This document shows positions 25,722 to 57,200 of a DNA stretch of 64,000 bases, piece after piece; position 1 is the first letter of the stretch, and each line of letters starts with the position of its first letter. The notes under the pieces are model-generated. The model saw nothing but the letters and a program-made list of their open reading frames with translations, had not been told where the DNA came from and searched no databases. The DNA lies in contig JAHILA010000009.1 of the NCBI GenBank assembly GCA_018897295.1, positions 3,154 through 67,153 of the forward strand, in the 5' to 3' direction. The translations under genes and the position numbers were made by a program. Source of the stretch: Patescibacteria group bacterium (GTDB lineage: Bacteria > Patescibacteriota > Minisyncoccia > RBG-13-40-8-A).

Positions 25722-25758
25722 AATATTTTTTATAAACTACTTTAAAATATTTTTCAAG

Positions 25759-25803
25759 TTATCCACAGAACAACCTTGACATTAATCTTTTTGATGATAT
25801 ACT
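25759..25803 (+). promoter_or_regulatory. Sigma70-type promoter (TTGACA-N16-TATACT) preceded by a DnaA-box 9-mer TTATCCACA
   Basis: TTATCCACA at 25759-25767. TTGACA at 25776-25781. TATACT at 25798-25803. Confidence 0.55.
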
Positions 25804-25887
25804 GATAATGCAGTCGCAAGATTGCCCTGCTCGCGGATGCGAGTCCGAGATTTAAACTTCGCCTTTCAAAGGCGAGGTTTTGTTTTT
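25804..25887 (+). ncRNA. Candidate small RNA of about 80 nt with its own promoter and intrinsic terminator (it also contains a 15-codon ORF MQSQDCPARGCESEI)
   Basis: The promoter sits immediately upstream. GC-rich hairpins (CTCGC-GGAT-GCGAG, CGCCTTT..AAAGGCG) are followed by GGTTTTGTTTTT. The element is convergent with the NYN gene, whose stop codon lies inside the terminator stem. Confidence 0.4.
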
Positions 25888-26516
25888 ATAAAAGTAATGC
25901 TCTTTTTTACTCTTTGAGCATTAATATTTAAATCTGCTCTTTCTTTGAGATAATGCGTGATATATCCAGCACTAAATAAAATCACCTTTTTCCCTTTTCT
26001 TCTTAAAAAATTTAACAAATAAGCAAAATCTGCATCACTAGAAAATAAACAAAACGTATCATAATCATTCAGAAATCTTATTGCATCAATACAAATTTCA
26101 GTGTCAAAATTACACTTTGGAATATAAATATATCTACCTTTATTATCTTGACTTATATATCTTGTTGTATTTTTTTCTTCTAAAGAGTCTAAATAATGTT
26201 TAATTCTTTGAATTGGTTTAGTAACTGTTTTATTAAAATATTGTCTCGCCTTACTAATAATTTTAATAGATTTTGGGTTTTTTGGATCCAAACCGAAATA
26301 AAATCTTTTATGTTCTGAAAATAAATTTATAAAACTTGCTAATTTTTCTATATCAACTACTAATTTTTTATCTTGCGGTAAAATATTGTCATCACCATCT
26401 CTCTCGTCTCTCTCATACCAATAATTTACGTTCCCAAAATCAACAAAACTATAAATCTTGCCAAATTTATTTTTATCTATTTTTAAGTTTTCTAACTTAA
26501 ACTCTTGTAAGTCCAT
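25866..26516 (-). CDS. NYN-domain (LabA/DUF88-like) protein
   Basis: VDFGNV ... FCLFSSDADF ... KVILFS motifs typical of NYN/LabA. Confidence 0.6.
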   Translation of the reverse strand: MDLQEFKLENLKIDKNKFGKIYSFVDFGNVNYWYERDERDGDDNILPQDKKLVVDIEKLASFINLFSEHKRFYFGLDPKNPKSIKIISKARQYFNKTVTKPIQRIKHYLDSLEEKNTTRYISQDNKGRYIYIPKCNFDTEICIDAIRFLNDYDTFCLFSSDADFAYLLNFLRRKGKKVILFSAGYITHYLKERADLNINAQRVKKSITFIKTKPRL

Positions 26517-26589
26517 TCTTATTTAAACTATAGCTTAAAGACCGACTTTTAGCAATAAAAAGAATGCCTTTCGCAGCTGCGAGAGGCAT

Positions 26590-27240
26590 TCAGCGTGAAA
26601 ATGGATAATCTTTGTTTGAAACTTTGGAAATAGCCCACATAATAGTGTTGGTAGTTGCATCTACGGATTTGTCCAAAGAGGTAAGAAAAAAACCAGGATC
26701 AAAAACGACTCTTTTCTCTTCGCTCCGAAGCTTATGAAACTCCCTGAAGCTAAAAGCCGGAATACCGAAACAGCCGGTTGGAATGATTTCTTTCGCAGAA
26801 AGCAGTGCCATAATTGAAACTCCTCGACGTCCTCTTAAGAGTTGTTTTTCGGCATTCTGACGACCCTCGGGAAAAATAACGACAATATGTCCTTGTCCCA
26901 ATAATTCAACTGCCCTGGTTAGACCCGCGCAATTGGCCGGCAGATAACCGATTCTTTCATCCAGTACATTAACAAGAACAGTAGCAATGGAATAGCGAAG
27001 AATTCTGTGCTTTATTCTTGTGCTTCCCAAGAAATACATTTTTTTCATTCGGGGATTGAAATAGCGCCGCAGAAAATTTCTTAAAACAGTGATAATAATT
27101 AACGGATCATAGGCTGTCCCATGATTGGCAGCAATGATAAATCCGTCGTTTCTCGGCAAGTTTTCTAGTCCCTTTACTTCGGCAGCCTGATTTTTGAAAA
27201 GAAAATAGATTATCCAATGAATAACTTTATAAAAGAACAT
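26590..27240 (-). CDS. plsC: 1-acyl-sn-glycerol-3-phosphate acyltransferase
   Basis: NHGTAYD (HX4D) and FPEGRQ motifs. Confidence 0.75.
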   Translation of the reverse strand: MFFYKVIHWIIYFLFKNQAAEVKGLENLPRNDGFIIAANHGTAYDPLIIITVLRNFLRRYFNPRMKKMYFLGSTRIKHRILRYSIATVLVNVLDERIGYLPANCAGLTRAVELLGQGHIVVIFPEGRQNAEKQLLRGRRGVSIMALLSAKEIIPTGCFGIPAFSFREFHKLRSEEKRVVFDPGFFLTSLDKSVDATTNTIMWAISKVSNKDYPFSR

Positions 27241-27332
27241 TTTTCACCTCCTTCCCAATACCCAACTTCGGTCTGGAACCAAATTTTTGAAGGTAAATTT
27301 GGGTCTTTTCCGAAGTTTTACTTGACCCGTCT

Positions 27333-27470
27333 CGGTAGGGGTCTTATATTACTATCTTAGCATAAAGTATGATATTTTGCGAGTGTCTCATTTCTTCAGC
27401 TTTAAAGCTAAAATAAGACGAATGAGACACTACTTGAGGTTGTTTTGAGTGTCTCATTTAAAAAGAGTTT
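27333..27470 (+). promoter_or_regulatory. Promoter (TTGACC-N17-TATATT) plus structured leader or sRNA with a three-copy repeat AGTGTCTCATT
   Basis: Copies lie at 27383 and 27449 (direct) and at 27423 (inverted, forming a 12-bp stem). A perfect palindrome AGCTTTAAAGCT sits in the loop. A T-rich tract follows. Confidence 0.35.
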
Positions 27471-28338
27471 TAACAATATTTTCGTCATGAATATTCTGTG
27501 TTGCTCGGAAAAGTTTATCAAAATCCGATACAGCAATAGCCTTATAGATTTTTCTTATATCAATATCCTTCCAAATATCCGATTGGAGAATCTGCCAATT
27601 GGTCTCATCTATAAAATCTCTTTTAATAAAAGGGTAATAGATAAAAAGAATATTGAAATCGCCAACAGAAAATTTTTCCTTCGCTCCCTCGGCTAGATTT
27701 TTTATCCTATTTAGCAACCAATTCTCGTCATCTCCAGAATAAGAATTATCCATAAAAACTTTTCTAGAATCTTTTATACTACTATTAAAATATACGATAT
27801 CAAATTTATAAGAATAAAATTCTGATTGCGTATCATGTTCGAGTTTCTGCTTTAAACAATTTACTACATCTTGATATAATTGATTTTGAATTGAATTATC
27901 GTCTAATAATTTTACCATAATATCTCTTTGTTCATTTACTTTGCTCTGAGAACCAACACTGTATTTTATAAATATTTGAAAGTTCAACTTTCTCCACTGA
28001 GAAAAATTTTTATCCAAATAATCTGCTAAATTGACTATGATCTCTTGTTCTTTGAAATTCTCCTTATCAAAACTCTTTATCTCAATATATTTATCAGTAT
28101 CAACTTTAATATCGGGATTCTTGTCTTTAAGAATTTCTACAGAATGCTTGCCATGGAATAAATATTCCACAATTTTCAGTTCTATCCAAATTCTATATTT
28201 ATTATCTAAACTTCCATGTTCGAAATCTTTCTTCTTTCCTATAATGCCTGCGATCTTAGTTTGCGCCAAAAAATCTATAATATCACGAGCTTGACGCTCC
28301 ATGTCTTCCCAAGACGCAAAATGTAATTTTTTAACCAT
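27454..28338 (-). CDS. Hypothetical protein (defense-island context)
   Basis: ORF only. No recognisable motif. Confidence 0.4.
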   Translation of the reverse strand: MVKKLHFASWEDMERQARDIIDFLAQTKIAGIIGKKKDFEHGSLDNKYRIWIELKIVEYLFHGKHSVEILKDKNPDIKVDTDKYIEIKSFDKENFKEQEIIVNLADYLDKNFSQWRKLNFQIFIKYSVGSQSKVNEQRDIMVKLLDDNSIQNQLYQDVVNCLKQKLEHDTQSEFYSYKFDIVYFNSSIKDSRKVFMDNSYSGDDENWLLNRIKNLAEGAKEKFSVGDFNILFIYYPFIKRDFIDETNWQILQSDIWKDIDIRKIYKAIAVSDFDKLFRATQNIHDENIVKTLFK

Positions 28339-28344
28339 AACTTT

Positions 28345-29082
28345 TTAGGAATTAACATTTAGTCCTTTGCCAAAAACGGCAGCCCATATTCCCCATTTTC
28401 CCCATATGGTAATGTGATATAACATTGAACCATAAATATCCTTAGCATACCGGACAATAAATCCTGGGCCTCGATTAGTCCTAACTCCATTTTTTTCCAG
28501 TATATTATTCAATTCCGATAATTCCAACTCAACGGCTTCTATTGAATCCGGAAGATGAATGATTTCAATATTTCTATCGGTATTAATGAGTTGACCCATT
28601 AATTTGAATTCCAATCCTCTAATCATTTTCTCGGTAATTGGATCTAATAACTCCGGTATTCTAATATTAACCAATAAAGATCTATCAAAAGTATTATCGG
28701 GACCAAAATTTTTTAGAAGACCACTGGGCATTTTATTAGTATATATTAAATCGGGAATAATTTTCTTAATATTGGCTTCTTTACGTTTTCTGTCTTTCTC
28801 ATTCGTCGCAGACGAAAGATCATATAAACGAATAGCTTTTTTTAAGACACCCAATGAAGCAATATTATTGCTATCTGTGCATATAGCCATTTTTTTATAT
28901 GTCTCTTCTTCGATTTTGCCCAACTCTTTATTGCATCTAAGGCAGGCAGGGGCAACCCATTTCTCCATGTCTTGAGGCGTTGAATCTGGATACCATGATT
29001 TAGGAAAAATATGGTCTTCCGTAAGTTCTTCAAAATATTTTAAACAATGAACACAATATTGATTGGTAAATTTTTTAGACAT
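28345..29082 (-). CDS. HNH endonuclease domain protein
   Basis: CVHCLKYF...EDHIFPKSW...APACLRCNKELG (CxxC...DH..P...CxxCN). Confidence 0.6.
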   Translation of the reverse strand: MSKKFTNQYCVHCLKYFEELTEDHIFPKSWYPDSTPQDMEKWVAPACLRCNKELGKIEEETYKKMAICTDSNNIASLGVLKKAIRLYDLSSATNEKDRKRKEANIKKIIPDLIYTNKMPSGLLKNFGPDNTFDRSLLVNIRIPELLDPITEKMIRGLEFKLMGQLINTDRNIEIIHLPDSIEAVELELSELNNILEKNGVRTNRGPGFIVRYAKDIYGSMLYHITIWGKWGIWAAVFGKGLNVNS

Positions 29083-29097
29083 TTAAATCTTTTTAAA

Positions 29098-30183
29098 CTA
29101 ACTTTTTATTAATTTCATCAAATCCTCATCGTTCTCATGGCCCTTCAATCTCCCAGTTAAAATTCCTAATCGATAATTTATTCCCTCGTTCATTAATCGC
29201 CAGTTAGTATTTTCGAGGGTTTGCTTTAAAAGTTTTTTAAGTTGAGACCGACTATCATATTCTTGACGGTCTTCTTTGTCATCTTGAACAGTAAATCTAA
29301 CAACTACATCTCGGTTAATTTCTGGTTTAGAGAACTCCCATTTACTATAACCTTCCTTTTCTGATTTTGGAGTTAAAAGCTTCTTAAGTCCAGCAACTGA
29401 AAGCTTTTTGATTTTAGCAATAACTTTAGTTATTTTTTCTTTTTCTTTTATCCCTTCTATTGTTTCCATAAGATGCTTTAATTTCATCTCGGATCCAATA
29501 TATTCTTGGCCTTTTTCTCCTGATAAACAAAATCTTCTACGATCTCTTTCGAAATTCTTATCTATTTTTTCCTTTGGAGAATTAAGGTCAAGTATTTCTC
29601 TACCTTTATGACCGCATTTTTTACAGGCGTAGGTAGTGATAATTCTATCTTCTTTCCGAGTATCGTTTGTCTTAACTTCACTTGAGCATTTTTCGCAAAT
29701 ATGCGGTTTGGGCTTCCATTCTTCTCCATCTTCGAATACTGCCCGCCTTGGTTTACATTCATTCGGACATTCAAAGAAAAATAGGATTCGTTCTTCTCCC
29801 TTAAGTTCATAGCCGTGAAAATCCTTTAATGTTGCCGTCATTTCCGAGCCACATTTTTTGCAGAAAATATCTATTGGCGTGACTGCGTTTTCTAATTTCT
29901 TATCTTTTGCTTTATCTCGCTCCATCCATTCTCTTATTGTTTGCGATTTTTTAGAATAACGCTCTCCCTTAACAAAATACAGCATAGTTGGAACAACGAC
30001 TCTTACTGTAAATTCTTTTTTAATTTTATCCTTTTTAGATTTATCGGTCTCTATCGAGATTTTATCTCCTGATATTCCTCGTTTTTCTAAACGCCTGCAT
30101 TCTTCAATAGTTAAGCGATCATAAAGATCGCTATAATAGGATGTGGACTTCAGGTATTTATATGCCGTTTTCATTTCAGACAT
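29098..30183 (-). CDS. Multi-zinc-ribbon hypothetical protein
   Basis: At least four CxxC pairs (CKKCG, CPNEC, CEKCS, CKKCG). Confidence 0.45.
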   Translation of the reverse strand: MSEMKTAYKYLKSTSYYSDLYDRLTIEECRRLEKRGISGDKISIETDKSKKDKIKKEFTVRVVVPTMLYFVKGERYSKKSQTIREWMERDKAKDKKLENAVTPIDIFCKKCGSEMTATLKDFHGYELKGEERILFFFECPNECKPRRAVFEDGEEWKPKPHICEKCSSEVKTNDTRKEDRIITTYACKKCGHKGREILDLNSPKEKIDKNFERDRRRFCLSGEKGQEYIGSEMKLKHLMETIEGIKEKEKITKVIAKIKKLSVAGLKKLLTPKSEKEGYSKWEFSKPEINRDVVVRFTVQDDKEDRQEYDSRSQLKKLLKQTLENTNWRLMNEGINYRLGILTGRLKGHENDEDLMKLIKS

Positions 30184-30185
30184 TT

Positions 30186-30365
30186 ATTGTTCTCTTTCGT
30201 AGTACGGACATTTTTCACAGAGCAACTCACCAAGTTGATTACCGATCATTGGATGGGTGCATCGTGAAGTTTTAACCGCATCGGTAAGTCCAGCTATACT
30301 TTCATTTGATGCCCTACTTTTAATCACTTCTTTTTTATAATACTTACAGTCGGTTTTTTCCATAA
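30186..30365 (-). CDS. Small (~59 aa) zinc-finger protein, not in the ORF track, translationally coupled to the downstream gene
   Basis: ATG at 30365. CKYY...CTHP...CEKCP. Its TAA stop directly abuts the ATG of the 29098-30183 gene (TAAATG). Confidence 0.4.
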
Positions 30366-30416
30366 TGTTTTTTATTTTTTATTAATTTTTACCATTATTT
30401 TTTAGTTTTTATAGAC

Positions 30417-30878
30417 TTATTTCCCCACCATAATAGTAAGTGTTGATTCATTTTGGAATTTCTCGTCTACGCCAACAAATAATAATTTTTCCTTATTTTT
30501 AAAAAACATTATATTCTTCTCGGTGTAATTAGTCTCCCAACCGAATCTCGATAAATTTTCTTTGTAGAATCTTATTACTTCTTCTTGTGGTAAATTAACT
30601 TCGTAGCTAAAACTTTCGTCTTGCTGGGCCGTGGTAGAAGTCTCTGGTTGGTAAGGAGAATATTCTTTAAGAATTGCTCCTGTTGGTAAAGGTATATTTT
30701 TATGTTTTTCAACAAATGTATCTATTGTTTCAATCTGTTCAGAGGTTTCGGAAGATATTTGTTCCGGTTGTGCTATTTCTGCTTCTTTCTTTTGGCCATC
30801 CGTACTAACAATAACAATAATAACGATAATTAAAAGAATTACTCCGCCTACAATATAAGGTATTTTTTTCTTACTCAT
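30417..30878 (-). CDS. Membrane-anchored hypothetical protein
   Basis: N-terminal TM helix. 153 aa. Confidence 0.4.
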   Translation of the reverse strand: MSKKKIPYIVGGVILLIIVIIVIVSTDGQKKEAEIAQPEQISSETSEQIETIDTFVEKHKNIPLPTGAILKEYSPYQPETSTTAQQDESFSYEVNLPQEEVIRFYKENLSRFGWETNYTEKNIMFFKNKEKLLFVGVDEKFQNESTLTIMVGK

Positions 30879-30909
30879 ATTTTTCTATTAATTTTTATCT
30901 AACCAAAAT

Positions 30910-31731
30910 CTACGGACAATTTAGGGCTTTTCGCCAACCGGCATTTAGGGCTTCTTGTTCTGAACAAAACCATTTTTCACCTCGAGCTTCATCTATTTTG
31001 GTTACATTATAAGAACTACATCCAGGCAAATGATATATCTTTTCTCCGGATGAGCTTATATTCCCTTTAATTAGACAGGAACTACTGGCTGGTTCTTCTT
31101 TTTGTTCTGCTGGTGGTAATACAGATTCTTCTTGTTCAGTAGTCGTTGGACATGCGTTCCATAATCCTCGTTTAGCTTCTCGGGCTTCCTGTTGGGCTTT
31201 TACGAATTGATCTTGATATTTTATATCTGGCGGATAAGAATACGAATAAGCAAAACCTTGTTTTACCAATTCGAGATTTATAAAAGCATCGCCAACCCAA
31301 ACATATCTTAAAAGCCGATCATATTTATCCCTATCTGTGATGTCTTTTTCTAAACGAATTTCTTTACCTTCAACTAATTCTTTGTTCTTGTTGGAAGCCT
31401 CTACTCCAAAGCATTGAACTGGTTTTCGGGGATCAACTGTTTCTGGCGTATCAATTCCAATATATCGAATTCTTTCTCCGCCCTCGATTTCAATAGTATC
31501 GCCATCAATAACCCGCGTAATCTTAAATAGACCAGTATTACTCTTATCCTGAACAGGTATATCTGTTATAGAAGAAGTTTGGGATTCAGCTTGAGGTTGA
31601 TTTTGAGATTCAATTTGAGATAAATTAGATTGATTATTTTTTGATCCAGAACCAATTGCAATTCCAATAAACAATATCAAAATAGCACCTACTATAATTA
31701 ATATTGTTTTCTTTTTACCAATAAACTTCAT
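30910..31731 (-). CDS. Secreted/anchored thermonuclease (staphylococcal nuclease fold) with C-terminal Cys-rich domain
   Basis: SNase block DGDTIEIEGGERIRYIGIDTPE...YDRLLRYVW. N-terminal TM helix. C-terminal H-PGC..Y...WFC...C module. Confidence 0.7.
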   Translation of the reverse strand: MKFIGKKKTILIIVGAILILFIGIAIGSGSKNNQSNLSQIESQNQPQAESQTSSITDIPVQDKSNTGLFKITRVIDGDTIEIEGGERIRYIGIDTPETVDPRKPVQCFGVEASNKNKELVEGKEIRLEKDITDRDKYDRLLRYVWVGDAFINLELVKQGFAYSYSYPPDIKYQDQFVKAQQEAREAKRGLWNACPTTTEQEESVLPPAEQKEEPASSSCLIKGNISSSGEKIYHLPGCSSYNVTKIDEARGEKWFCSEQEALNAGWRKALNCP

Positions 31732-31735
31732 AAAT

Positions 31736-32782: not shown

Positions 32783-32794
32783 AGATAAGGTCTT

Positions 32795-33130
32795 TTAGAA
32801 GATAAGATGACCCGCGATTAATCCAATTGCAGCTACCATAATGTTTATCAGGATATTTATATAAAATGACTTTTTGTCTCGTTTATCAAGATATTCTTTC
32901 ATTTTTGGCATTGAAAAATCTAATTCTGATACCAATTTTTTCACATTGTCATCATCAATTGCTATCTCGGAATTATAGACATCTCTCAATCTATTTAAAT
33001 TTTCTTGTAATTCAGAAATGTTTTCTGAATTCGCAATCTTTTCTAGTGCTTCAAATGCTTCTTTTCTTTCTCTTTCCCACTCTTCTTGTAGGTGCATTTC
33101 ATATTGTACATCTTCTATTGTTGTTCCCAT
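32795..33130 (-). CDS. Hypothetical protein with C-terminal TM helix
   Basis: ORF with a hydrophobic C-terminus. Confidence 0.35.
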   Translation of the reverse strand: MGTTIEDVQYEMHLQEEWERERKEAFEALEKIANSENISELQENLNRLRDVYNSEIAIDDDNVKKLVSELDFSMPKMKEYLDKRDKKSFYINILINIMVAAIGLIAGHLIF

Positions 33131-33133
33131 ATG

Positions 33134-34039: not shown

Positions 34040-34167
34040 ATATTTTCTAAAACTTCTCCGATTTTCGTTTCTATCAGCTCAATTGGGCAGCGATTGACGG
34101 TGATGATTTCTTCTTCCTTTTTCGCTTCAGCGACGAACTGTTTTTGAATTCCAAATGGCATAAATAA

Positions 34168-37020: not shown

Positions 37021-37043
37021 GGACGCCTTTCGGTCGCCCTAAG

Positions 37044-37413: not shown

Positions 37414-37441
37414 GCTTTTCAGTTAACCGAGTTTGACTCGG

Positions 37442-39404: not shown

Positions 39405-39450
39405 ACTTTTTATACTACACCAGATTTAAAAATATTTCCAATTTTAAAAG

Positions 39451-39499
39451 TTATCCACAGAAACCAACATTGACTTTCAGTTTTCTTTCGGTATATAAT
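39451..39499 (+). promoter_or_regulatory. Promoter (TTGACT-N18-TATAAT) preceded by DnaA-box 9-mer TTATCCACA
   Basis: TTATCCACA at 39451-39459. TTGACT at 39470-39475. TATAAT at 39494-39499. Confidence 0.5.
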
Positions 39500-39510
39500 T
39501 ATATTAAGAT

Positions 39511-40962
39511 ATGCTTACAAAAAAACAACAGCAAATATTGGAATATATTAAAAAATGCATAAAGAAAAATAACTACTCTCCTTCTCTTAAAGAAATAGCG
39601 AGACATTTTAAATTATCTTCTGCATCGGGCATTCATCAACACGTTGAAGCATTAAAATTAAAAGGGTATTTGAATAAATTTGAAAACCACCCACGAACAA
39701 TTCAAATTGAAAAACATGAAAGAATGATTAATATTCCAATATTGGGATTAATTGCAGCAGGACAACCGATAGAAGCAATTGAGGATAAAGAAACAATCGC
39801 CATTCCACAAAACAAAATTCCTCATTCCGGAAAATTTTACGCATTACGCGTAACCGGAAACAGTATGATTGACGAAAATATAAATGACAACGACATTATC
39901 TTGGTTAAACAACAAAATGTAGCCGAAAATGGACAAAAGATAGTGGGACTCATTGATAACAACGAAGCAACGTTAAAAAAATTCTATAAAGAAAAAAACT
40001 ATATTCGACTACAGCCAGCTAATAAAAATATGAGTCCGATTATTATTAATAAAAATCAAAATTTTAATATTCAAGGAGTAGTTGTTGATGTAATAAAAAA
40101 CGAACAAGATTTAACAGCCACTGAAACATTGCCAATTTCAAAAATTCAACAATACGACACATTGCCATTAAATGAAATTATTTGCGGTGATTGTGTTAAT
40201 GTCTTAAAAAAAATACCAGATAATTCAATTGATATGGTAATTACATCCCCCCCTTACGATAATGTTCGAACATATAATGGATTTAGTTTTAATTTACACG
40301 ACACGGGTAAAGAATTATTTCGCGTTCTTAAAGATGGCGGAATCGTAGCAATGGTTATACAAGATCAGACAAAAAACTTTGGTAAATCGCTCACGTCATT
40401 CAAGACCATTGTTGACTGGGTTGATAATATCGGATTTAAGCTTTTCGAGACTGTTATATATAAAAAACACGGCGCCGAAGGCGCGTGGTGGACAAAAAGA
40501 TTTCGAGTTGATCATGAATACATCCCTATTTTTCTTAAAGGAGAACGCCCGGCATATTTTAATAAAGAACCACTTAAAATTCCATCCAAACACGGAGGCA
40601 AAACCATGACCGGATGTGCTACACGACTAACTAATGGCAAAACATTAAAATCAAAAAAGGTCTTTATTAATCCAATGAAATGCAGGGGAACATTATGGGA
40701 TTATACTACATGTGGCGATGGCACTAAATTAAAACACCAACATCCTGCGACGTTTCCAGATAAAATTCCCTATGATCTTATACAATGTTTTTGTCCATTA
40801 AATGGCGTGGTATTGGATCCATTTGTGGGAAGTGGCACATCTGTATTGGCAGCCATCCAATTGAATAAAAATTATATTGGAATTGATATCTCTAAAGAAT
40901 ATTGTGATTTAACCAAAAAAAGAATCAAAGAAGAGGGATCAATTAATAGAAAATTATTTTAA
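39511..40962 (+). CDS. LexA-like repressor (winged HTH plus S24 peptidase) fused to a beta-class N6A/N4C DNA methyltransferase
   Basis: N-terminal ~200 aa carry a LexA-type HTH and S24 motifs (GNSM ... ILVKQQ). C-terminus carries ITSPPYDN (motif IV) before DPFVGSGTS (motif I). Confidence 0.65.
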   Translation: MLTKKQQQILEYIKKCIKKNNYSPSLKEIARHFKLSSASGIHQHVEALKLKGYLNKFENHPRTIQIEKHERMINIPILGLIAAGQPIEAIEDKETIAIPQNKIPHSGKFYALRVTGNSMIDENINDNDIILVKQQNVAENGQKIVGLIDNNEATLKKFYKEKNYIRLQPANKNMSPIIINKNQNFNIQGVVVDVIKNEQDLTATETLPISKIQQYDTLPLNEIICGDCVNVLKKIPDNSIDMVITSPPYDNVRTYNGFSFNLHDTGKELFRVLKDGGIVAMVIQDQTKNFGKSLTSFKTIVDWVDNIGFKLFETVIYKKHGAEGAWWTKRFRVDHEYIPIFLKGERPAYFNKEPLKIPSKHGGKTMTGCATRLTNGKTLKSKKVFINPMKCRGTLWDYTTCGDGTKLKHQHPATFPDKIPYDLIQCFCPLNGVVLDPFVGSGTSVLAAIQLNKNYIGIDISKEYCDLTKKRIKEEGSINRKLF

Positions 40963-41943
40963 TAATTTTCTATTGTCAATAGTATATTCTATCGCCAATC
41001 CACTAGTCATCGCCCAAGACAATGGATTTTTTTTAATCATAAATTCAAAATTTCTATTATTGGGCACAATATTTTCTTTTGTAAATTTATAAGTTTTAAA
41101 ATTAGACCATTGCCAATTTTTTGATACATATGTCCATTTTGTTAATTTAGACAACATTTTTAAAAATCTTTCCGACTTCTGTTTTTCTTCATCATTAATA
41201 CTGTAATAATTTTTCATTTTTATTATATTAACGAATTCCCCTTTAGAATTGGATATTTTGATTTTGTCGTTTCTTTTCTTGTTTTCACTTATATCACTAA
41301 TCTCAAGAAAAAAATCTTTTAACGCAATCATTAAATTGTGTATAGAGTAATGTTTATTCAAAAAGATTTTATTCAATTCATTTTCCCTTGATTCTGCGTT
41401 TAAATATTTTAACCAATCGATACAATTTTCCGGATATCCAAATAAATTTTTAAATACGCCATCCACATATAATAATGGACAAATTGCTGATTCGGGAATA
41501 GTAAATTTCTTTTTTGATCCTATTATTCCAATAAGCATATGTATTGTGGCTAATGGATATTTTAATTTAAAATTTTTATATCCATCATAATTTCTTAAAT
41601 TATTGGGTTGTATACAATTTTTAAAATTATCCCAATTTAATGGTCGTTTATTTTTATTAAATTGAACCATGTGATGCCCGATGCTTCGTATATTTTTTCT
41701 GAAAATTTCCATATCCAAAAATATGCAATCTCTAACGGAAATATTGTTATCCAACAACATCACTTTTCCGTCATAAAATCCTCTTATCTTCCAACCTAAA
41801 AAATGAGACATAAATAAACCGCATAGTAAACCATCTGCGTCTGGACTCAAAATACAATCGTGATTTTTCTCTAATATCCACGGATGATCTAAAATAATTT
41901 TTCGATAATCAATTTTTTCTATCATGTTTTTATAATACATCAC
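40954..41943 (-). CDS. Hypothetical protein, a candidate cognate restriction endonuclease convergent with the methyltransferase
   Basis: ORF only. Convergent and overlapping arrangement with the MTase gene. Confidence 0.3.
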   Translation of the reverse strand: MMYYKNMIEKIDYRKIILDHPWILEKNHDCILSPDADGLLCGLFMSHFLGWKIRGFYDGKVMLLDNNISVRDCIFLDMEIFRKNIRSIGHHMVQFNKNKRPLNWDNFKNCIQPNNLRNYDGYKNFKLKYPLATIHMLIGIIGSKKKFTIPESAICPLLYVDGVFKNLFGYPENCIDWLKYLNAESRENELNKIFLNKHYSIHNLMIALKDFFLEISDISENKKRNDKIKISNSKGEFVNIIKMKNYYSINDEEKQKSERFLKMLSKLTKWTYVSKNWQWSNFKTYKFTKENIVPNNRNFEFMIKKNPLSWAMTSGLAIEYTIDNRKLLK

Positions 41944-42020
41944 ACCTCCTCTCTTGGCAAACGATTTATTGTGTAGTATAATGATTTTATAAAAAATAAA
42001 TTAACCAGTAAAATTAATAC

Positions 42021-45927: not shown

Positions 45928-46116
45928 AACCGGTTTACCATGAGCGAAGCGCCTTAAGCGCTGAGTCGAATGGGGATAACTTGTTTAGAACATAATCCAA
46001 AGAAAACAAATCTAGTTCATCGTCAAGGCTAAAATAAGCTAATTTTGGCTCTAAAAACAGGATGCCAAGCAAAAACCTTGATATTGACTAAATTCTAAAA
46101 ACTTATCCACAACATG

Positions 46117-46186
46117 CCCCGTAGTGAATTCTCGACTGATGCAGGGCAGCATAATAATTTTAATTAGTCGAGAATCTACTACGGGG
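46117..46186. repeat. Second copy of the CCCCGTA..GAATT.TCGAC inverted-repeat element, ending 1 nt before the comM start codon
   Basis: CCCCGTAGTGAATTCTCGACT (46117-46137) pairs with AGTCGAGAATCTACTACGGGG (46166-46186) around a 28-nt AT-rich loop. A TTATCCACA box lies at 46103-46111. Confidence 0.6.
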
Positions 46187-46187
46187 T

Positions 46188-47723
46188 ATGAACAAAGTTT
46201 TTTCAGCAGCTATAACTGGCCTTGAAGCTGAACTCATAGAGGTGGAGGCGGATTTATCATCCGGTCTCCGCTTTTTTAGTATTGTCGGACTGCCGGACAA
46301 ATCAGTTGAAGAGTCCAAGGAGAGAATTGCTGCAGCAATAAAAAATAGCGGAGCAGAACCTCCGCACAAACAAAATAAAAGAGTAATTATTAATTTAGCA
46401 CCGGCTGATTTAAGGAAGGAGGGTTCAGCTTATGACTTGCCTATTGCTTTAAGCTTTCTTTTATCGTCAGGGCAGATAAAATTCGACGAGAAAGATAAAT
46501 TATTTGTCGGTGAATTGGCTTTGAATGGCGAGATCAGAAGAGCTAATGGGGTTTTGCCGATTTGTTTAATGGCAAAAGAAAAGGGAATTACCAATGTCTT
46601 TGTTCCGAAATCAAACAGCAATGAAGCAAGATTAGTAAGAGATATAAATATATTTCCCATCGAGTCATTAGTAGAACTTATTGCTTTTCTGGAAAATAGA
46701 ATTGAAATCAAACCTCTGGAGCCGTTTGGCGAGGAATTTTTAGAAGGATTTGAAATCGGATTCCAGCCAAGTGTTGATATGGCTTATATTAAAGGACAGG
46801 AAAACGCCAAAAGGGCATTGGAAATTGCTGCAAGCGGAAATCATAATGTACTCATGACTGGCCCGCCTGGATCAGGAAAAACATTATTGGCAAAAGCGAT
46901 TTCTACAATTCTGCCAAAAATGGCTTGGAGCGAAATCTTGGAAGTTACCAAAATCTACAGCATAGCTGGAAAACTTTCCCATAAAAAACCTTTAATCCAC
47001 CAGAGGCCGTTTCGCTCTCCTCATCACAGCGCATCAGAGGCTTCTTTAATTGGAGGCGGAGGCATTGCTAGGCCAGGAGAAATTACTTTGGCCCATCGCG
47101 GAATATTATTTCTTGATGAATTTCCGGAAGTGCACAGGGACGTTTTGGAAAGTTTGAGGCAGCCATTAGAAGACGGCGTAATACATGTTGCCAGAGCCAA
47201 GGCCAGTTATACTTTCCCGGCAAGATTTACATTAATTGCCGCAATGAATCCCTGCCCTTGTGGATATTATGGAGACCCTGAAAAACAATGCACCTGCAAC
47301 CAGCAGCAGATTAATAAATATCAAAGAAGGGTGTCCGGACCAATTATGGATAGGATTGATTTATATGTTGAAGTGCCGCATGTAAAATACGAAAAATTAA
47401 CTGATGAAAATATGGAGGGATCAAGCCAGACAATCAGAAAAAAAGTGGAAAAGGCCAGACAAATCCAGATTGAAAGATTTAAGGATGATAATATTGTTAC
47501 AAATTCGGAAATGAATATCCCTTTGATTAAAAAGCATTGCAGAACCGATGAGCAAGGGGAGAGATTATTGCGCAATGCAGTAAATAATCTCCATATGTCA
47601 GCGCGCGGATACCACCGCATTTTAAAATTAGCGCGTACTATTGCTGACCTTGCCGAATCACCCAGTATTACCTCGCAGCACATTGCCGAAGCCCTGCAAT
47701 ACCGGCCAAAAGTGGAAATATAG
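46188..47723 (+). CDS. comM: Mg-chelatase-like AAA+ ATPase ComM/YifB
   Basis: N-terminal Lon-like domain, Walker A GPPGSGKT, C-terminal domain. Confidence 0.85.
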   Translation: MNKVFSAAITGLEAELIEVEADLSSGLRFFSIVGLPDKSVEESKERIAAAIKNSGAEPPHKQNKRVIINLAPADLRKEGSAYDLPIALSFLLSSGQIKFDEKDKLFVGELALNGEIRRANGVLPICLMAKEKGITNVFVPKSNSNEARLVRDINIFPIESLVELIAFLENRIEIKPLEPFGEEFLEGFEIGFQPSVDMAYIKGQENAKRALEIAASGNHNVLMTGPPGSGKTLLAKAISTILPKMAWSEILEVTKIYSIAGKLSHKKPLIHQRPFRSPHHSASEASLIGGGGIARPGEITLAHRGILFLDEFPEVHRDVLESLRQPLEDGVIHVARAKASYTFPARFTLIAAMNPCPCGYYGDPEKQCTCNQQQINKYQRRVSGPIMDRIDLYVEVPHVKYEKLTDENMEGSSQTIRKKVEKARQIQIERFKDDNIVTNSEMNIPLIKKHCRTDEQGERLLRNAVNNLHMSARGYHRILKLARTIADLAESPSITSQHIAEALQYRPKVEI

Positions 47724-47760
47724 TTATCCACAATATTAACTATTGACAAGTATATCATAT

Positions 47761-48138
47761 ATGATATATACTGAATCAAGTGAATATAGAGTAAAATTCT
47801 ATATCGATCCCAAAACCAATAAGAGCTATATTTTTGAATATATCGATGATTTGGACAAAAAACAAAAAGCTAAAATTTTAAATCGGATCGAATTTTTAAG
47901 ACAATATAAAGGCGTATTAGATGAACCGTACTCAAAACACATCAAGGGTAAAATTCGCGAATTAAGAATTGATTTTGGCAAAAATAGACATAGAATTTTC
48001 TATTTTACATTTATTAAGAAAACAATCATACTCCTCCACGCATTCTTGAAACATACATCAAAAACCCCTGAATCAGAAATAAGAATTGCTGAAAATAATT
48101 ATTATGTTGTAATTAATAATCCAAAAATTTATGAATAG
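47761..48138 (+). CDS. HigB/Gp49-like type II toxin (start uncertain; the ORF track begins at TTG 47743)
   Basis: GKIRELRIDFGKNRHRIFYF...LLHAFLKHTSKTPESEI resembles the phage Gp49/HigB family. Overlaps the downstream antitoxin by 8 nt. Confidence 0.55.
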   Translation: MIYTESSEYRVKFYIDPKTNKSYIFEYIDDLDKKQKAKILNRIEFLRQYKGVLDEPYSKHIKGKIRELRIDFGKNRHRIFYFTFIKKTIILLHAFLKHTSKTPESEIRIAENNYYVVINNPKIYE

Positions 48139-48421
48139 AAAAATAAAGGCAAGAGATTTCCAAAAATATCTTGCCGAACAATTAAAAAATCCTGAATTCA
48201 AAAAACACTATAACGAATATGGGAAGCAATTGGAAGTTGCTTATCAGATTTTGAAATTACGAAAACAAAAAAATATTTCCCAAGCGCAATTGGCTAAAAA
48301 ACTTAAAACCAAACAAAGTAATATCGCTCGCATAGAAAATGGCAAACAAAACTTAAGTATACAAACCCTCAACAACATCGCCCGCGCTCTAAACAGCGAT
48401 TTAACCGTCAATTTTTCGTAA
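48131..48421 (+). CDS. HTH-XRE antitoxin (HigA-like)
   Basis: ISQAQLAKKLKTKQSNIARIENGK HTH_XRE motif. Confidence 0.7.
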   Translation: MNRKIKARDFQKYLAEQLKNPEFKKHYNEYGKQLEVAYQILKLRKQKNISQAQLAKKLKTKQSNIARIENGKQNLSIQTLNNIARALNSDLTVNFS

Positions 48422-48454
48422 AAATTAAAACAAACAAATCTATGGAATTTTGTT

Positions 48455-48482
48455 AAAAAATCCGCCTCATGCGGATTTTTAA
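48455..48482 (+). terminator. Rho-independent terminator after the TA pair
   Basis: AATCCGC-CTCAT-GCGGATT followed by TTTT. Confidence 0.6.
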
Positions 48483-48485
48483 ATA

Positions 48486-48524
48486 GAAATATAAAAATAA
48501 AGGCCACCTTATTCGGTGGCCTTT
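48486..48524 (-). terminator. Terminator for the 48509-48787 gene (the stop codon lies in the stem)
   Basis: AAAGGCCACC-GAATAA-GGTGGCCTTT followed by a T-rich tract on the minus strand. Confidence 0.55.
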
Positions 48525-54271: not shown

Positions 54272-57200
54272 AAAAACAGATTTTTACAATCTTGTTAATC
54301 GCAACAATTCTCGGTTCAACAATAGGCGCTTTCTTGTTTAATCCCAAAAAAGCAAATGCGGTTTTCGGAATCGGAGATATAAGTATAGATATAGTAAATC
54401 AGATTAAGGACTGGGTGCTTGATCAATTGCCAAAAACAGTTGCCAGGAGCATGATGGTCCGCTTGCAACAAGAAATAGCGCGCTGGGCCCAAGGGGGATT
54501 TACAGATCAAAATAAGCCATTTGCAATGATAAGCTGGAAACAAGAAGTTAAAAACGCATTGCAAATTGCCTCTAGCAGATTTGTTAGTGAATTCAATCTC
54601 ACTCCTCTCTGCTCGCCATTCAAAGTTTCCCTCGGCACTGCCCTTGGAATTAATATGCCTGGAGGCGCAATACCTTATAGAACATACGCTGCTTGTACAA
54701 TTAGCGATATTGTGGATAATGTTGAAGAATTTTACAAAAATCCATCCATTGCCATGTATGGATGGGATACCTGGACTGCATTAGCCCAGCCAAACAATAA
54801 TTTTATTGGTTCATTTATGATGGCGGTTTCAGAAAGGAAAAGATTAGAGCAGGAAGAAATAACAGAAGTGGAAAAAGAAGTTGAAGCTGGTCAAGGAATT
54901 AAAAATGAAGCAATATGCAATCTAACCGACCAGCAAGATTGCGCGACAAATTGCAACCAGTATCCTAACATCATAAACGGGCTTCCGAATCCACTTTATG
55001 TTGCTTGTATGAAATCCTGCGAAAAATCTTCAATCGGCGCTTGTCTTGAAAAAACCACCAAAAAACTCGGTTCAGAAATAAAAACCAGCGTTGACGAGGC
55101 AATTGGAAGCGATATGGGCTGGTTAATTACTGCGGACGAAATAACAGAAATGATGAATCTGGTATTTTCCGGATTATTCAATAAACTAACTCACGGCATT
55201 AATGGAATGCTAACCAAAGGAAGCTCTTCAACAACTATAATATCCAAGAACCAGGCAGAATACGGATATTATGAAGATTACAAAAAAAACCAGACACCAC
55301 AGGACATCACAAAAGTAAAAGGAGATATTCTAAATAATATTTTAAAATCAATCCAAGGCGTATCTACTGCAGGATATGCCTGCGACAAGAGTGAACAAAT
55401 AAAGGGTGATATTTTTAGAGAAGTGGCTACGGATGTTTTAAATGAAGAGTCGCAGCACCTTTATACAGTAATGGAAGGCATTAATTTGAAACCGGACTAT
55501 GAAGTTCTTGATACGCAGCCAGCAGTTGATAACAAAATAGCGATATATGGCAAAACCTGGGATGATGTTCCTTTTAATAAATATCCGGAAAAATGCGCCA
55601 GTATTGCAAATAAAAAATGTAGCGACATTAAAACCGGTCTGCCTTATGAATTGAGTATAAATAATATTAATAGCGAATGCGCTACGGGATGCCTGGAACA
55701 GATAAATAATTACCAGGCAGAATGCTTAAGTACATTTAACGGATGCGAATATAACTGTAAAGACGAAACATGCAAAACCGCCTGCCATACTGCATATTCA
55801 GCTTGCTATAATGCGGCAAAAACAAAAGCAGTTAATGATAAAAAATGCTCAAGCATCGCAGTTGCTGATGCCTGTTTGAATGGGCAGGCATTGATAAGCA
55901 AGGCAAGAAATAGTTGCAGCGACTGTGTTAAAAAATATGAAGATTTCTGCGCATTAAAGAAAACCAAAGCAGAAAAAGACCTTTGCGTGCAAGAAAGCTG
56001 CAGTAATTATGAAGATATAAGCTCATCAATTAAAAGCGCGCAGGATTTCTATGACCGCTGCGCTTTAAATGAAACGAAATACTCCTGCGAAGTTTGTTTA
56101 AAAGAATATTTTATGCCAGCGGATTATTGCGGACAAATTTATGACTATATAAACCGCGCATTCGTTAAATATCCTGCCTTGGTTTATCATAATACCTGGT
56201 GGGGAGGATGGGTCAATTTTGAAGGGCAGTCTGAAGAACTTCTTAAAAATCCCTTTGTTGCCTGCGCCCCTCCCAATAATTCAGAATTTCTTTCAACTGC
56301 TTTAACCTGCCGCATCTTGCCTGACTTCCAGTTTCCCGGAGGAGGAACCTGTAAAACATTATGCAAAACAACTGAGGAAGAATTAAAAAATATTACTGAT
56401 AATAAACCGCAGGAACTTGATTGCATTGGACCATTAAAAGATCCAGCGCATCCAGAATGGGGAGGAGTGTGGCGTTCCGGAGGTTTGAGCCCAGGCGGAC
56501 AATATGCTACTTATTTGGCCAAGAAAAAAATCAAATGCTGCGCTGCTGTAACCGGGCATATGCCAATGGATTATAGGCTATGCAGAGGGATTACGTCAGA
56601 TCCAGTAGCTGAGGAAGAATTAGAAGGATGGTGCGATGATAAAGGCAGACCACTATGGAAAAATCCGGAATGTTTTTGCGAGAAAGGTTGGCGGCCGATT
56701 GATCTCACAAAAAATACTACAACAGGTTCTGATTTTTATTCTCCATGGTATAATGTCGGTCGCGACGAACCAGAAGAAACATGCAGCAGGGCATCAGGCG
56801 GTGTCAATATTTTAGTACCAAATATGGCAAAAGCGAATAAGGCCATTCTTGAAACTAATTCTGCTGCAGGAGGAAGTATTGTATATGTTGCTGAACACGA
56901 AGCCATTGATCCAGATTTAAATTCTTGTTTATATGAAAAAGTTTGCGCTGGAACAAATTTGCCTCTATGTGAAAACAGAACAATGACAACAAGTTGTGAT
57001 TTTGTGGCAAATCCGCCTGCTGGTATAATTTGTTCTGAAGAAACCGTTCATACTCCATCTGCTTACAATTGTTGCAATTCCGGAGGAGTAGAAAGCGGGA
57101 AAGGAGTAATAAAAGTTGAATGCGATTTAAGCGGATACAGAAACCAAGAAGTGTTTTTGGGAGTTTATGATAATGATAAAACGGATTGCAGAACTGTAGT

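What the first reader, a model, noticed from the sequence alone, without database searches (positions are those of the whole stretch)
25759..25781. At least four perfect DnaA-box 9-mers (TTATCCACA), all in intergenic promoter regions, three of them 8-10 nt upstream of a TTGACA-like -35 element
TTATCCACA occurs at 25759-25767, 39451-39459, 46103-46111 and 47724-47732. All four are intergenic. In three the arrangement is TTATCCACA-N8-10-TTGAC(A/T) followed by a -10 element, with TTGACA at 25776, TTGACT at 39470 and TTGACA at 47743. Roughly one chance occurrence of a given 9-mer, or fewer, is expected in 64 kb, so four perfect copies in a fixed register with promoter elements is a clear signal. 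In two cases the box also lies on the other strand just upstream of a divergent promoter (cca, and the 38250-39404 gene). This could reflect direct DnaA-dependent transcriptional control of dispersed genes, a lineage-specific upstream promoter element, or a binding site for another factor that shares the motif.
Basis: partly seen in the sequence, partly recalled or inferred. Interest (0 to 1): 0.6.

Follow-up and report, generated by a model that had tools for sequence, protein, structure and literature searches.

The report
DnaA boxes phased upstream of promoters
Four perfect binding sites for the replication initiator DnaA sit at promoters in a tiny uncultured (Patescibacteria) bacterium, three of them in a fixed "box, one helical turn, -35" layout on accessory gene cassettes, a layout that recurs with helical phasing in many uncultured phage contigs and suggests that DnaA doubles as a promoter-proximal transcription factor there.

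Summary
TTATCCACA occurs 5 times (0.6 expected). Four copies are intergenic and on the + strand, at the stated coordinates. Three lie 8, 10 and 10 nt upstream of strong TTGAC(A/T)-N16-18-TATAnT promoters.

The sites share only the box, so they are not a longer repeat. They are not an oriC cluster either. The source genome's dnaA starts about 6.3 kb beyond the right end of the window.

In 2.1 Mb of related Patescibacteria DNA the 9-mer is the most over-represented non-tRNA intergenic word. Its flanks extend it to AAGTTATCCACAR. It forms clusters beside dnaA and dnaN. It sits 7-10 nt upstream of a -35 about 30 times more often than control positions.

The closest relative lacks the LexA-methyltransferase cassette and the HigBA cassette, so boxes 2 and 4 ride on accessory cassettes. 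Box 1 lies in a strain-specific region. Only box 3, upstream of comM, is conserved in all relatives.

In viral contigs the same composite is common, and the box-to--35 distance shows roughly 10.5-bp periodicity in both orientations.

Best reading: single high-affinity DnaA boxes act as face-of-helix upstream promoter elements, probably activating. DnaA binding and the direction of the effect are untested.

The parts
25759..25767 (+). DnaA box 1 (caAGTTATCCACAGaa), lying between two divergent promoters
   Evidence: It is not conserved next to cca in any of 27 relatives inspected and has no BLAST match in the fetched loci.
25776..25803 (+). Promoter TTGACA-N16-TGaTATACT, 8 nt downstream of box 1
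   Evidence: 11 of 12 matches, extended -10 TG.
25808..25890 (+). Short transcript with two small hairpins and an intrinsic terminator (stem 25854-25880 followed by a T run). It is antisense to the 3' end of the NYN gene 25866-26516 and could encode a 15-aa leaderless peptide (ATG 25808).
   Evidence: Fold z-score -3.9; terminator; no Rfam family; no copy in viral contigs.
25729..25757 (-). Putative cca promoter TTGAAA-N17-TATAAA. Its -35 is 1 nt from the box (which is in reverse orientation relative to this promoter) and its -10 ends 7 nt before the GTG start at 25721.
   Evidence: Read. Relatives have TTGCxA-N17-TAxxxT at the same place. It was not listed by the scanner because the -10 lacks the final T.
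39451..39459 (+). DnaA box 2 (aaAGTTATCCACAGaa)
   Evidence: The box and promoter are conserved upstream of the LexA-C5-methyltransferase fusion in L002 (89% over 55 nt).
39470..39499 (+). Promoter TTGACT-N18-TATAAT, 10 nt downstream of box 2. The ATG at 39511 lies 11 nt after the -10, so the mRNA is nearly leaderless.
39414..41950 (.). Accessory restriction-modification-like cassette: a LexA_DNA_bind + Peptidase_S24 + N6_N4_Mtase fusion (39511-40962, +) and a convergent 329-aa ORF (40954-41943, -). The closest relative L007 has 17 bp here instead.
   Evidence: Pfam; BLAST boundaries against L007, L084 and L002.
45971..45979 (-). One-mismatch box TTATCCCCA, inverted relative to box 3 and 123 nt upstream of it. 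It is conserved in six of the seven aligned sequences (not L004).
   Evidence: (GGGGATAAC enriched in close relatives).
46103..46111 (+). DnaA box 3, upstream of comM. It is invariant in all seven aligned sequences although mean column identity is 56%. In L007 and L003 it ends 2 nt before the comM ATG.
   Evidence: No canonical promoter nearby.
46112..46187 (+). Imperfect ~20-nt-arm hairpin insertion between box 3 and the comM start, with a duplicated ATG. Absent in L007, L003 and L002; a copy lies elsewhere in L085.
46188..47723 (+). comM/yifB (Mg-chelatase-like AAA+), flanked by boxes 3 and 4
   Evidence: Pfam.
47724..47732 (+). DnaA box 4 (taGTTATCCACAAt). It forms the first 9 nt of the HigBA cassette, immediately after the comM stop codon.
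   Evidence: Conserved in L001, L002, L003 and L084; absent together with the cassette in L007.
47743..47772 (+). Promoter TTGACA-N18-TATACT, 10 nt downstream of box 4
47751..47768 (.). 18-bp perfect palindrome TATATCATA|TATGATATA spanning the spacer, the -10 and the annotated ATG. It is a likely antitoxin operator.
   Evidence: Read.
47724..48494 (.). Toxin-antitoxin cassette (Gp49/HigB-like 47761-48138, HTH_3 antitoxin 48131-48421, terminator) flanked by 9-bp direct repeats GAAATATA(G/A) at 47715-47723 and 48486-48494
   Evidence: Pfam; the empty site in L007 and the alignment.
54711..54719 (-). Fifth exact box, inside the 1015-aa ORF. Probably a chance occurrence.
   Evidence: Coding boxes show no flank bias.

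Best explanation
These are genuine high-affinity DnaA boxes used singly as upstream promoter elements. In three of four cases the box sits one helical turn upstream of the -35 of a strong sigma-70-type promoter, with its centre near -48 to -50. DnaA bound there would lie on one face of the helix next to RNA polymerase and modulate initiation. I think activation or recruitment is the more likely effect. The driven units are a small RNA, a LexA-methyltransferase fusion and a HigBA module, so their expression would follow the amount or nucleotide state of DnaA. The box-plus-promoter unit is portable: boxes 2 and 4 belong to cassettes missing from the closest relative, box 1 lies in a strain-specific region, and the same composite recurs in uncultured phage contigs. 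Box 3 (comM) is conserved but not in this register. There DnaA more likely occludes the region around the start codon or acts as a roadblock. What is shown: the motif, its enrichment, its conservation, its register and its phasing. What is inferred: that DnaA is the binder, and the direction of the effect.
For: Enrichment. (1) There are 5 exact copies against 0.6 expected, 4 of them in the 6.6% of the window that is intergenic.

(2) In 1.29 Mb of comM-neighbourhood loci from Patescibacteria, TTATCCACA is the top non-tRNA intergenic 9-mer: 52 observed, 2.3 expected, in 36 loci. 56 of 83 boxes are intergenic although only 11% of that DNA is intergenic.

Identity as a DnaA box. (3) 48 non-redundant intergenic boxes have biased flanks (A at -2 in 32 of 48; G at -1 in 22 of 48 with A only 3; purine at +1 in 35 of 48). 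Coding boxes have no such bias. The extended motif AAGTTATCCACAR matches the GTTATCCACAG form of E. coli oriC boxes R1 and R4 (my own knowledge).

(4) In relatives the same 9-mer forms clusters next to dnaA and dnaN and in long non-coding regions. Five Patescibacteria DnaA proteins keep the domain IV motif GGRDHTTAMHA.

(5) The source genome has dnaA about 6.3 kb beyond the right end of the window, with three phased imperfect boxes in the rpmH-dnaA spacer.

Link to promoters. (6) 11 of 68 intergenic boxes have a good promoter at offset 7-10, against 0.33 expected. At least six are independent sites (contexts).

(7) Box 3 is invariant in all seven aligned sequences (six relatives plus the window) while its flanks diverge. 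Boxes 2 and 4 are conserved wherever their cassettes occur.

(8) In viral contigs AGTTATCCACAG-N7-9-TTGACA occurs in at least 120 loci, up to 4 per contig, and nearly all have a correctly spaced -10 that the search did not require.

(9) With a free gap of 0-30 nt, promoters that have a -10 cluster at box-to--35 gaps of 8-12, 17-21 and 28-30 (forward orientation) and 4-10, 15-20 and 26-32 (reverse orientation). Rayleigh p is about 1e-9 and 1e-8 after de-duplication.

(10) No DnaA-like protein is encoded in the fetched viral stretches, which points to a host factor.

(11) DnaA is an established activator and repressor, including at nrdAB through high-affinity boxes that stabilise RNA polymerase (PMC8203912).
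Against: There are no binding or expression data. Domain IV of this genome's own DnaA was not seen; only 14 N-terminal residues were.

Most known DnaA-regulated promoters use several boxes, whereas these are singletons.

Site 3 has no canonical promoter.

At site 4 the only in-frame start codon (47761) lies upstream of the predicted transcription start, so either the promoter call or the ORF start is wrong (note).

Site 1 is not conserved anywhere.

An unbiased sample of 129 viral AAAGTTATCCACAG sites had no promoter at offsets 7-10 and consisted mostly of tandem origin-type arrays. The composite is therefore a minority use of the box.

The hosts of the viral contigs are unknown.

Box density is about three times higher in comM (origin-proximal) loci than in cca loci, which also fits a role in replication control.

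Helical phasing argues for a contact with polymerase but does not decide between activation and repression.
Confidence: 0.6

Rival explanations
1. DnaA binds these boxes, but their main role is replication control. As origin-proximal high-affinity sites they would titrate or store DnaA, like B. subtilis DnaA-box clusters or E. coli datA. Any effect on transcription would be incidental.
For: The window lies 22-45 kb from dnaA. comM lies within 10 kb of dnaA/dnaN in Magasanikbacteria. Box density is about three times higher in comM loci than in cca loci. Origin-proximal DnaA-box clusters regulate initiation in B. subtilis (PMC3245932).
Against: Known titration loci are clusters, and these are single boxes at least 1.6 kb apart. 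Boxes 2 and 4 are on cassettes that the closest relative lacks. A titration role does not explain the fixed 8-10 nt register or the 10.5-bp phasing with promoters.
Confidence: 0.15
2. The motif at promoters is bound by another protein with DnaA-box-like specificity, either a host or phage transcription factor or a domain-IV-only paralogue. It would coincide with the DnaA box only in sequence.
For: Promoter-associated boxes are singletons with a strict register, unlike classical DnaA regulation. The composite is common in phages. No experiment ties DnaA to these sites.
Against: The 9-mer and its flanks are identical to those in the clusters beside dnaA and dnaN. No DnaA-like or domain-IV-like ORF was found in 433 fetched viral stretches. 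The motif is asymmetric, so it does not fit a dimeric helix-turn-helix factor such as LexA or HigA. The HigA-type palindrome at site 4 is a separate element. Boxes at comM persist in relatives that lack the LexA-methyltransferase cassette at this locus.
Confidence: 0.15
3. The boxes are part of the chromosomal origin (a dispersed oriC) at the strand-switch near 39.4 kb.
For: Gene orientation and GC skew flip at about 39.4-42 kb, and box 2 sits at the flip.
Against: dnaA with rpmH-rnpA-yidC-jag lies about 30 kb to the right. The skew magnitudes fit a single replichore plus a coding-strand effect (my arithmetic). There is no box cluster or unwinding-element-like region. The equivalent divergent spacer in L084 has no boxes, and in L007 it is 30 bp. 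Box 2 arrived with an inserted cassette.
Confidence: 0.03
4. It is chance, a composition effect, or part of a longer repeat or mobile-element end unrelated to promoters.
For: Box 4 is the very first 9 nt of an inserted cassette flanked by 9-bp direct repeats. The intergenic DNA is A+T-rich.
Against: 0 of 100 shuffles reach 5 copies. Only the box is shared among the four sites (alignment A1). Box 2 lies 37 nt inside its cassette. There is strong enrichment and conservation in independent loci.
Confidence: 0.02

Closest known systems
DnaA-regulated promoters of model bacteria (E. coli dnaA and nrdAB; B. subtilis dnaA, sda and the replication-stress regulon; Caulobacter DnaA regulon)
   Same: Consensus DnaA boxes lie in or just upstream of sigma-70 promoters. 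At nrdAB, high-affinity boxes upstream of the promoter are thought to stabilise RNA polymerase (PMC8203912). There are links to DNA-damage and replication genes (uvrB and recN are co-regulated with LexA).
   Different: Here each promoter has a single box in a narrow register (8-10 nt from the -35), with second and third classes one and two helical turns further upstream. The boxes sit largely on accessory cassettes and phage-like DNA rather than at core replication genes. The organism is an uncultured Patescibacteria member and nothing has been tested experimentally.
B. subtilis oriC-proximal DnaA-box clusters, and E. coli datA and DARS
   Same: They are high-affinity DnaA sites outside oriC, near the origin and in intergenic regions, and some also regulate neighbouring genes (PMC3245932).
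   Different: Those are clusters of several boxes. These are singletons in register with a promoter, and two or three of the four are strain-variable.
Monomeric activators MarA, SoxS and Rob (class I and class II promoters)
   Same: This is an analogy of mechanism only (my own knowledge). An asymmetric site for a monomer works in either orientation, with the allowed orientation depending on distance from the -35 and on the face of the helix.
   Different: The protein family is unrelated. It was not tested here and is offered only as a model of how a single asymmetric box could act.
DnaA stimulation of phage lambda pR / ori-lambda transcription
   Same: A phage promoter uses host DnaA as a transcription factor, with contact to RNA polymerase proposed (cited in PMC8203912).
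   Different: In lambda the boxes lie downstream of the promoter (my own knowledge). Here they are upstream at about -50, and up to four copies occur per contig.
UP element
   Same: It occupies the same position (-40 to -60) upstream of the -35.
   Different: UP elements are A/T-rich and read by the alpha C-terminal domain in one orientation. This motif has a C-rich core, occurs in both orientations, and also forms origin-type clusters.

Membership tests
DnaA box (binding site of DnaA domain IV) | 9-mer matching TTATNCACA, ideally TTATCCACA | tested here: met
   Five exact matches.
DnaA box (binding site of DnaA domain IV) | The same word is used in clusters at oriC, dnaA and dnaN in the lineage | tested here: met
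   Clusters upstream of and downstream of dnaA (L063), upstream of dnaN (L075), and triple-box arrays in Magasanikbacteria loci. In the source genome, three imperfect phased boxes lie in the rpmH-dnaA spacer.
DnaA box (binding site of DnaA domain IV) | The organism encodes DnaA with conserved base-contacting residues in domain IV | tested here: inconclusive
   The dnaA start (MTNHELWQTVLSEI) was found 6.3 kb right of the window next to rpmH-rnpA-yidC-jag, but the contig ends there. Domain IV GGRDHTTAMHA is conserved in five other Patescibacteria DnaA proteins.
DnaA box (binding site of DnaA domain IV) | Physical binding by DnaA | not testable with these tools
   Needs EMSA, footprinting or ChIP.
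DnaA-regulated promoter | Box within or adjacent to a functional promoter, at a non-random position | tested here: met
   Sites 1, 2 and 4 have spacers of 8, 10 and 10 nt to 11-of-12 promoters. There is about 30-fold enrichment at offsets 7-10 in related loci and helical phasing in viral contigs. Site 3 does not meet this feature.
DnaA-regulated promoter | Transcription changes when DnaA or the box is perturbed | not testable with these tools
   No expression data are available.
oriC / DnaA-box cluster (DBC, datA, DARS) | Several boxes within a few hundred bp, plus for oriC an A+T-rich unwinding element, usually next to dnaA | tested here: not met
   The boxes are at least 1.6 kb apart. Relaxed TTWTNCACA matches show no cluster, and one-mismatch boxes are not enriched. 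There is no dnaA or dnaN in the window.
UP element | A/T-rich sequence, fixed orientation, found only at promoters | tested here: not met
   The core is CCAC. Both orientations are used. The motif also occurs in non-promoter clusters.
LexA (SOS) operator or toxin-antitoxin operator | Dyad-symmetric or repeated half-sites overlapping the promoter | tested here: not met
   The motif is asymmetric and only the 9-mer is shared (A1). A separate 18-bp palindrome lies inside the site 4 promoter. Boxes persist in relatives that lack the LexA fusion at this locus.
Dispersed repeat / MITE | Homology extending beyond the short motif | tested here: not met
   In alignment A1 only the box columns are invariant.

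The most novel reading that the evidence does not exclude
A single consensus DnaA box placed on a defined face of the helix about one, two or three turns upstream of the -35 is a portable promoter module. Phages, toxin-antitoxin and restriction-modification cassettes, and the regulator-poor Patescibacteria would use it to wire gene expression directly to the host replication initiator. That would make DnaA a major global transcription activator in this phylum and a growth or replication sensor for its mobile elements.
Probability: 0.35. Interest if true: 0.7.

Novelty: new variant of a known kind. Interest (0 to 1): 0.55.

Why it matters
Patescibacteria have tiny genomes with few recognisable regulators, and almost nothing is known about how they control transcription. 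If the replication initiator doubles as a promoter-proximal factor, that would be a simple, testable way of coupling gene expression to the replication cycle. The targets would include a methyltransferase fused to LexA, a toxin-antitoxin module, a small RNA and comM.

The same layout, helically phased, appears in many uncultured phage contigs. This suggests a general way for mobile elements to read the host's replication state. It also gives a ready-made sequence signature for finding such promoters in metagenomes.

At the level of this window alone, the finding is a new instance of a known phenomenon: DnaA acting as a transcription factor.

Tried and rejected
- **Longer repeat.** Rejected: only the box aligns among the four sites.
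- **oriC at the strand switch.** Rejected: there is no box cluster, dnaA lies about 30 kb to the right, and the equivalent spacer in relatives is empty.
- **Known RNA family for the site 1 transcript.** None found at gathering score or at E <= 10. Rfam also found nothing but tRNAs in the long non-coding, box-rich regions of seven relatives.
- **Conservation of site 1.** It is absent next to cca in the 27 cca-linked metagenome loci inspected, of 80 fetched, absent by BLAST, and absent from viral contigs.
- **Retrieving full-length dnaA of the source genome.** The NCBI contig that would cover it was never returned; only a Logan contig ending 41 nt into dnaA was. The RNase Y look-up found nothing.
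- **Host assignment of the viral contigs.** Best tblastn hits to cultured phages are only 25-31% identical and span many host genera. Comparison with the Patescibacteria loci gave only a weak excess of hits (32 against 16) and a few tRNA-like matches.
- **Phage-encoded DnaA or domain IV protein.** None found in the fetched stretches.
- **Literature.** There are no papers linking DnaA boxes with Patescibacteria/CPR promoters, or LexA-methyltransferase fusions with Patescibacteria. The Patescibacteria SOS paper (Sanchez-Osuna et al. 2017) is not held.
- **Canonical promoter for comM, and a divergent one for the 38250-39404 gene.** Neither was found.

Full report
**Observation.** TTATCCACA occurs exactly five times in the window. 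Four copies are on the + strand at 25759, 39451, 46103 and 47724. Dinucleotide-preserving shuffles give 0.60 copies on average and never five. One-mismatch variants are not enriched (27 found, 18.8 expected). With ORFs and tRNAs mapped, only 6.6% of the window is intergenic, yet four of the five boxes are intergenic.

TTGACA 25776, TTGACT 39470 and TTGACA 47743 lie 8, 10 and 10 nt after the box. Each is followed at 16-18 nt by TATACT, TATAAT or TATACT, scoring 11 of 12 matches. Site 3 (46103) has no canonical promoter. A divergent cca promoter, TTGAAA-N17-TATAAA, abuts box 1 and ends 7 nt before the GTG start (read). No canonical divergent promoter exists at site 2. Only the box is shared by the four sites (alignment A1), so this is not a longer repeat.

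**Organism and location.** The gene content is typical of Patescibacteria (CPR). The ComM protein is encoded identically on a contig of GCA_018895295.1. Its relatives are Patescibacteria/Paceibacterota MAGs.

Gene orientation and GC skew flip near 39.4-42 kb, which at first suggested an origin. A Logan contig overlapping the right end of the window shows otherwise. It carries jag-yidC-rnpA-rpmH on the - strand, followed by the start of dnaA (MTNHELWQTVLSEI) about 6.3 kb beyond the window end. The rpmH-dnaA spacer holds three phased imperfect boxes, cAATCCACA, cAATTCACA and TTATTCACA. The window is therefore origin-proximal, with the boxes 22-45 kb from dnaA, but it does not contain oriC. There is no box cluster. 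There is no dnaA or dnaN in the window. The equivalent divergent spacer in relatives has no boxes (L084) or is only 30 bp long (L007).

**The motif is the phylum's DnaA box.** I analysed 81 sequences (80 comM-neighbourhood loci plus the window, 1.29 Mb). In them, 56 of 83 boxes are intergenic although only 11% of the DNA is intergenic. TTATCCACA is the most over-represented intergenic 9-mer after tRNA-derived words: 52 observed, 2.3 expected, in 36 loci.

Forty-eight non-redundant intergenic boxes have biased flanks, giving AAGTTATCCACAR. Coding boxes have no such bias. This extended form equals the GTTATCCACAG of E. coli oriC boxes R1 and R4 (my own knowledge).

In Magasanikbacteria and other loci the same word forms clusters upstream and downstream of dnaA, upstream of dnaN, and in long non-coding regions. 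Five Patescibacteria DnaA proteins keep the domain IV motif GGRDHTTAMHA. Box density is roughly three times lower in 0.82 Mb of cca-neighbourhood metagenome loci (21 boxes). So part of the enrichment is related to origin proximity.

**Conservation and cassette structure.** Box 3 is invariant in all seven aligned sequences (six relatives plus the window; 80-96% ComM identity) while the surrounding columns average 56% identity. An inverted one-mismatch box 123 nt upstream is conserved in six of the seven (not L004).

In L007 and L003 box 3 ends 2 nt before the comM ATG. In this window an imperfect ~20-nt-arm hairpin is inserted between them, and a second copy of it lies elsewhere in L085.

The closest relative, L007, lacks two segments that the window has. 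The first is 39414-41950: box 2, its promoter, a LexA_DNA_bind-Peptidase_S24-N6_N4_Mtase fusion and a convergent ORF. The second is 47724-48494: box 4, its promoter and a Gp49/HigB-HTH pair. This second segment is flanked by 9-bp direct repeats, and the box forms its first 9 nt.

L002 carries a LexA-S24 fused to a C5-methyltransferase at the same place, with the same box and promoter. Site 1 and its small transcript are found next to cca in no relative and nowhere else in the fetched DNA. In L084 cca and comM are only about 6.3 kb apart. Thus boxes 2 and 4 ride on accessory cassettes, box 1 lies in a strain-specific region, and only box 3 is core.

**Register with promoters.** Over 2.1 Mb of Patescibacteria loci, 11 of 68 intergenic boxes have a stringent promoter starting 7-10 nt after the box, against 0.33 expected from control positions. 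At least six are independent sites: window sites 1, 2 and 4, L040, L088 and L092. Reverse-oriented boxes cluster at 6-7 nt (contexts).

Up to four copies occur per contig, and nearly all have a correctly spaced -10 that the pattern did not require. An unbiased sample of AAAGTTATCCACAG in viral contigs consisted mostly of tandem origin-type arrays and had no such promoters. The composite is therefore a distinct, minority use of the box.

With the gap left free (0-30 nt), de-duplicated promoters that have a -10 cluster as follows. In the forward orientation the box-to--35 gaps are 8-12, 17-21 and 28-30 nt. In the reverse orientation they are 4-10, 15-20 and 26-32 nt. Rayleigh p is about 1e-9 and 1e-8 at periods of 10-11.5 bp. 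TTGACA matches without a -10 are spread out. The window's gaps of 8, 10 and 10 fall in the main forward class.

No DnaA-like ORF occurs in the fetched viral stretches. Their hosts remain unknown, with only a weak affinity to Patescibacteria.

**Mechanism.** The box centre lies near -48 to -50, or one or two turns further upstream. The preference for one face of the helix, in either orientation, is what one expects of a protein that touches or bends DNA towards RNA polymerase.

DnaA is a documented activator and repressor. At nrdAB, high-affinity upstream boxes are thought to stabilise the polymerase-DNA complex, and DnaA co-regulates SOS genes with LexA (PMC8203912). I therefore favour DnaA acting as a promoter-proximal factor, more likely as an activator. 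This would tie expression of the small RNA, the LexA-methyltransferase fusion and the HigBA module to DnaA level or nucleotide state.

For comM, the box sits right at the start codon without a promoter in register. That suggests occlusion or a roadblock instead.

The rivals are listed with their weights in the Rival explanations section: origin-proximal titration, another factor with the same specificity, dispersed oriC, and chance or repeat. The first two cannot be excluded without experiments.

**Open problems.**
- At site 4 the only in-frame start codon (47761) lies upstream of the predicted transcription start. An 18-bp perfect palindrome (47751-47768) covers the spacer, the -10 and that ATG (note).
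- Domain IV of the source genome's own DnaA was not retrievable.
- Searches of the held literature found no report connecting DnaA boxes with CPR promoters.

**Verdict.** The DnaA-dependent promoter reading is the best supported, at about 0.6. The kind of element is known (DnaA as a transcription factor). What appears new is the architecture: a single box, phased with the promoter, portable on cassettes and phage DNA.

Noticed in passing
window 39511-40962 (+), with 40954-41943 (-); L002 3311-4870: A complete LexA (DNA-binding domain plus S24 autopeptidase, with the AAG cleavage site, GNSM serine and a lysine) is fused to an N6/N4 DNA methyltransferase. It sits in a 2.5-kb restriction-modification-like cassette absent from the closest relative. 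A relative has LexA fused to a C5-cytosine methyltransferase at the same locus. LexA-methyltransferase fusions were not found in the literature searched.
   Followed up: partly
window 47715-48494: A 0.77-kb HigB(Gp49)/HigA cassette is inserted exactly at the comM stop codon and flanked by 9-bp direct repeats GAAATATA(G/A). The empty site is seen in L007.
   Followed up: yes
window 46112-46187; L085 14649-14724: A hairpin element of about 76 nt (imperfect arms of about 20 nt, MITE-like) is inserted between box 3 and the comM ATG, with a duplicated ATG. It is present in some relatives (L001, L084, L004), absent in others (L007, L003, L002), and has another copy elsewhere in L085.
   Followed up: partly
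window 25808-25890 (+): An orphan small transcript (two hairpins plus an intrinsic terminator; z-score -3.9) is antisense to the 3' end of an NYN-domain gene. It could encode a 15-aa leaderless peptide, MQSQDCPARGCESEI. It has no Rfam family and no homologue in the fetched loci or in viral contigs.
   Followed up: partly
window 47743-47779: The annotated HigB start codon (ATG 47761) lies inside the predicted promoter, upstream of the expected transcription start. An 18-bp perfect palindrome (47751-47768) covers it.
   Followed up: partly
L162 8865-9053 (equivalent to window coordinates about 70,166-70,354): The rpmH-dnaA spacer of the source genome has three tandem imperfect DnaA boxes 9-11 bp apart, followed by the dnaA start. 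The classic jag-yidC-rnpA-rpmH|dnaA arrangement lies just outside the window.
   Followed up: partly
window 25866-37513: A strain-specific island lies between cca and a tRNA cluster. It includes an NYN protein, an acyltransferase, an 889-aa type II restriction/methylase-like protein (34168-36837) and a GIY-YIG-like ORF (37492-37770). It is absent in L084, where cca and comM are 6.3 kb apart.
   Followed up: partly
L054 7857-9129 (also L042, L037, L063, L073 about 1.6 kb upstream of comM; L053, L057, L059 beside ychF): Magasanikbacteria have repeated triple-box arrays, TTATCC(A/C)CA-N12-TTTTCCACA-N3-TTATCCACA, followed by TGTATA...TATACA palindromes. They lie in 0.6-1.3-kb non-coding regions that also contain a G+C-rich, structured-looking segment (L054 about 8640-8960) with no Rfam match.
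   Followed up: no
window cca 25721, lexA fusion 39511; L040 17597: Several genes start 5-11 nt after the -10 element and have no Shine-Dalgarno sequence. This suggests frequent leaderless or near-leaderless mRNAs in this lineage.
   Followed up: no
L023 5916 and L030 66: These are orthologous promoters. In one the box abuts the -35 directly. In the other a 30-nt G+C-rich hairpin is inserted between the box and the -35, which shifts the box by about three helical turns.
   Followed up: no
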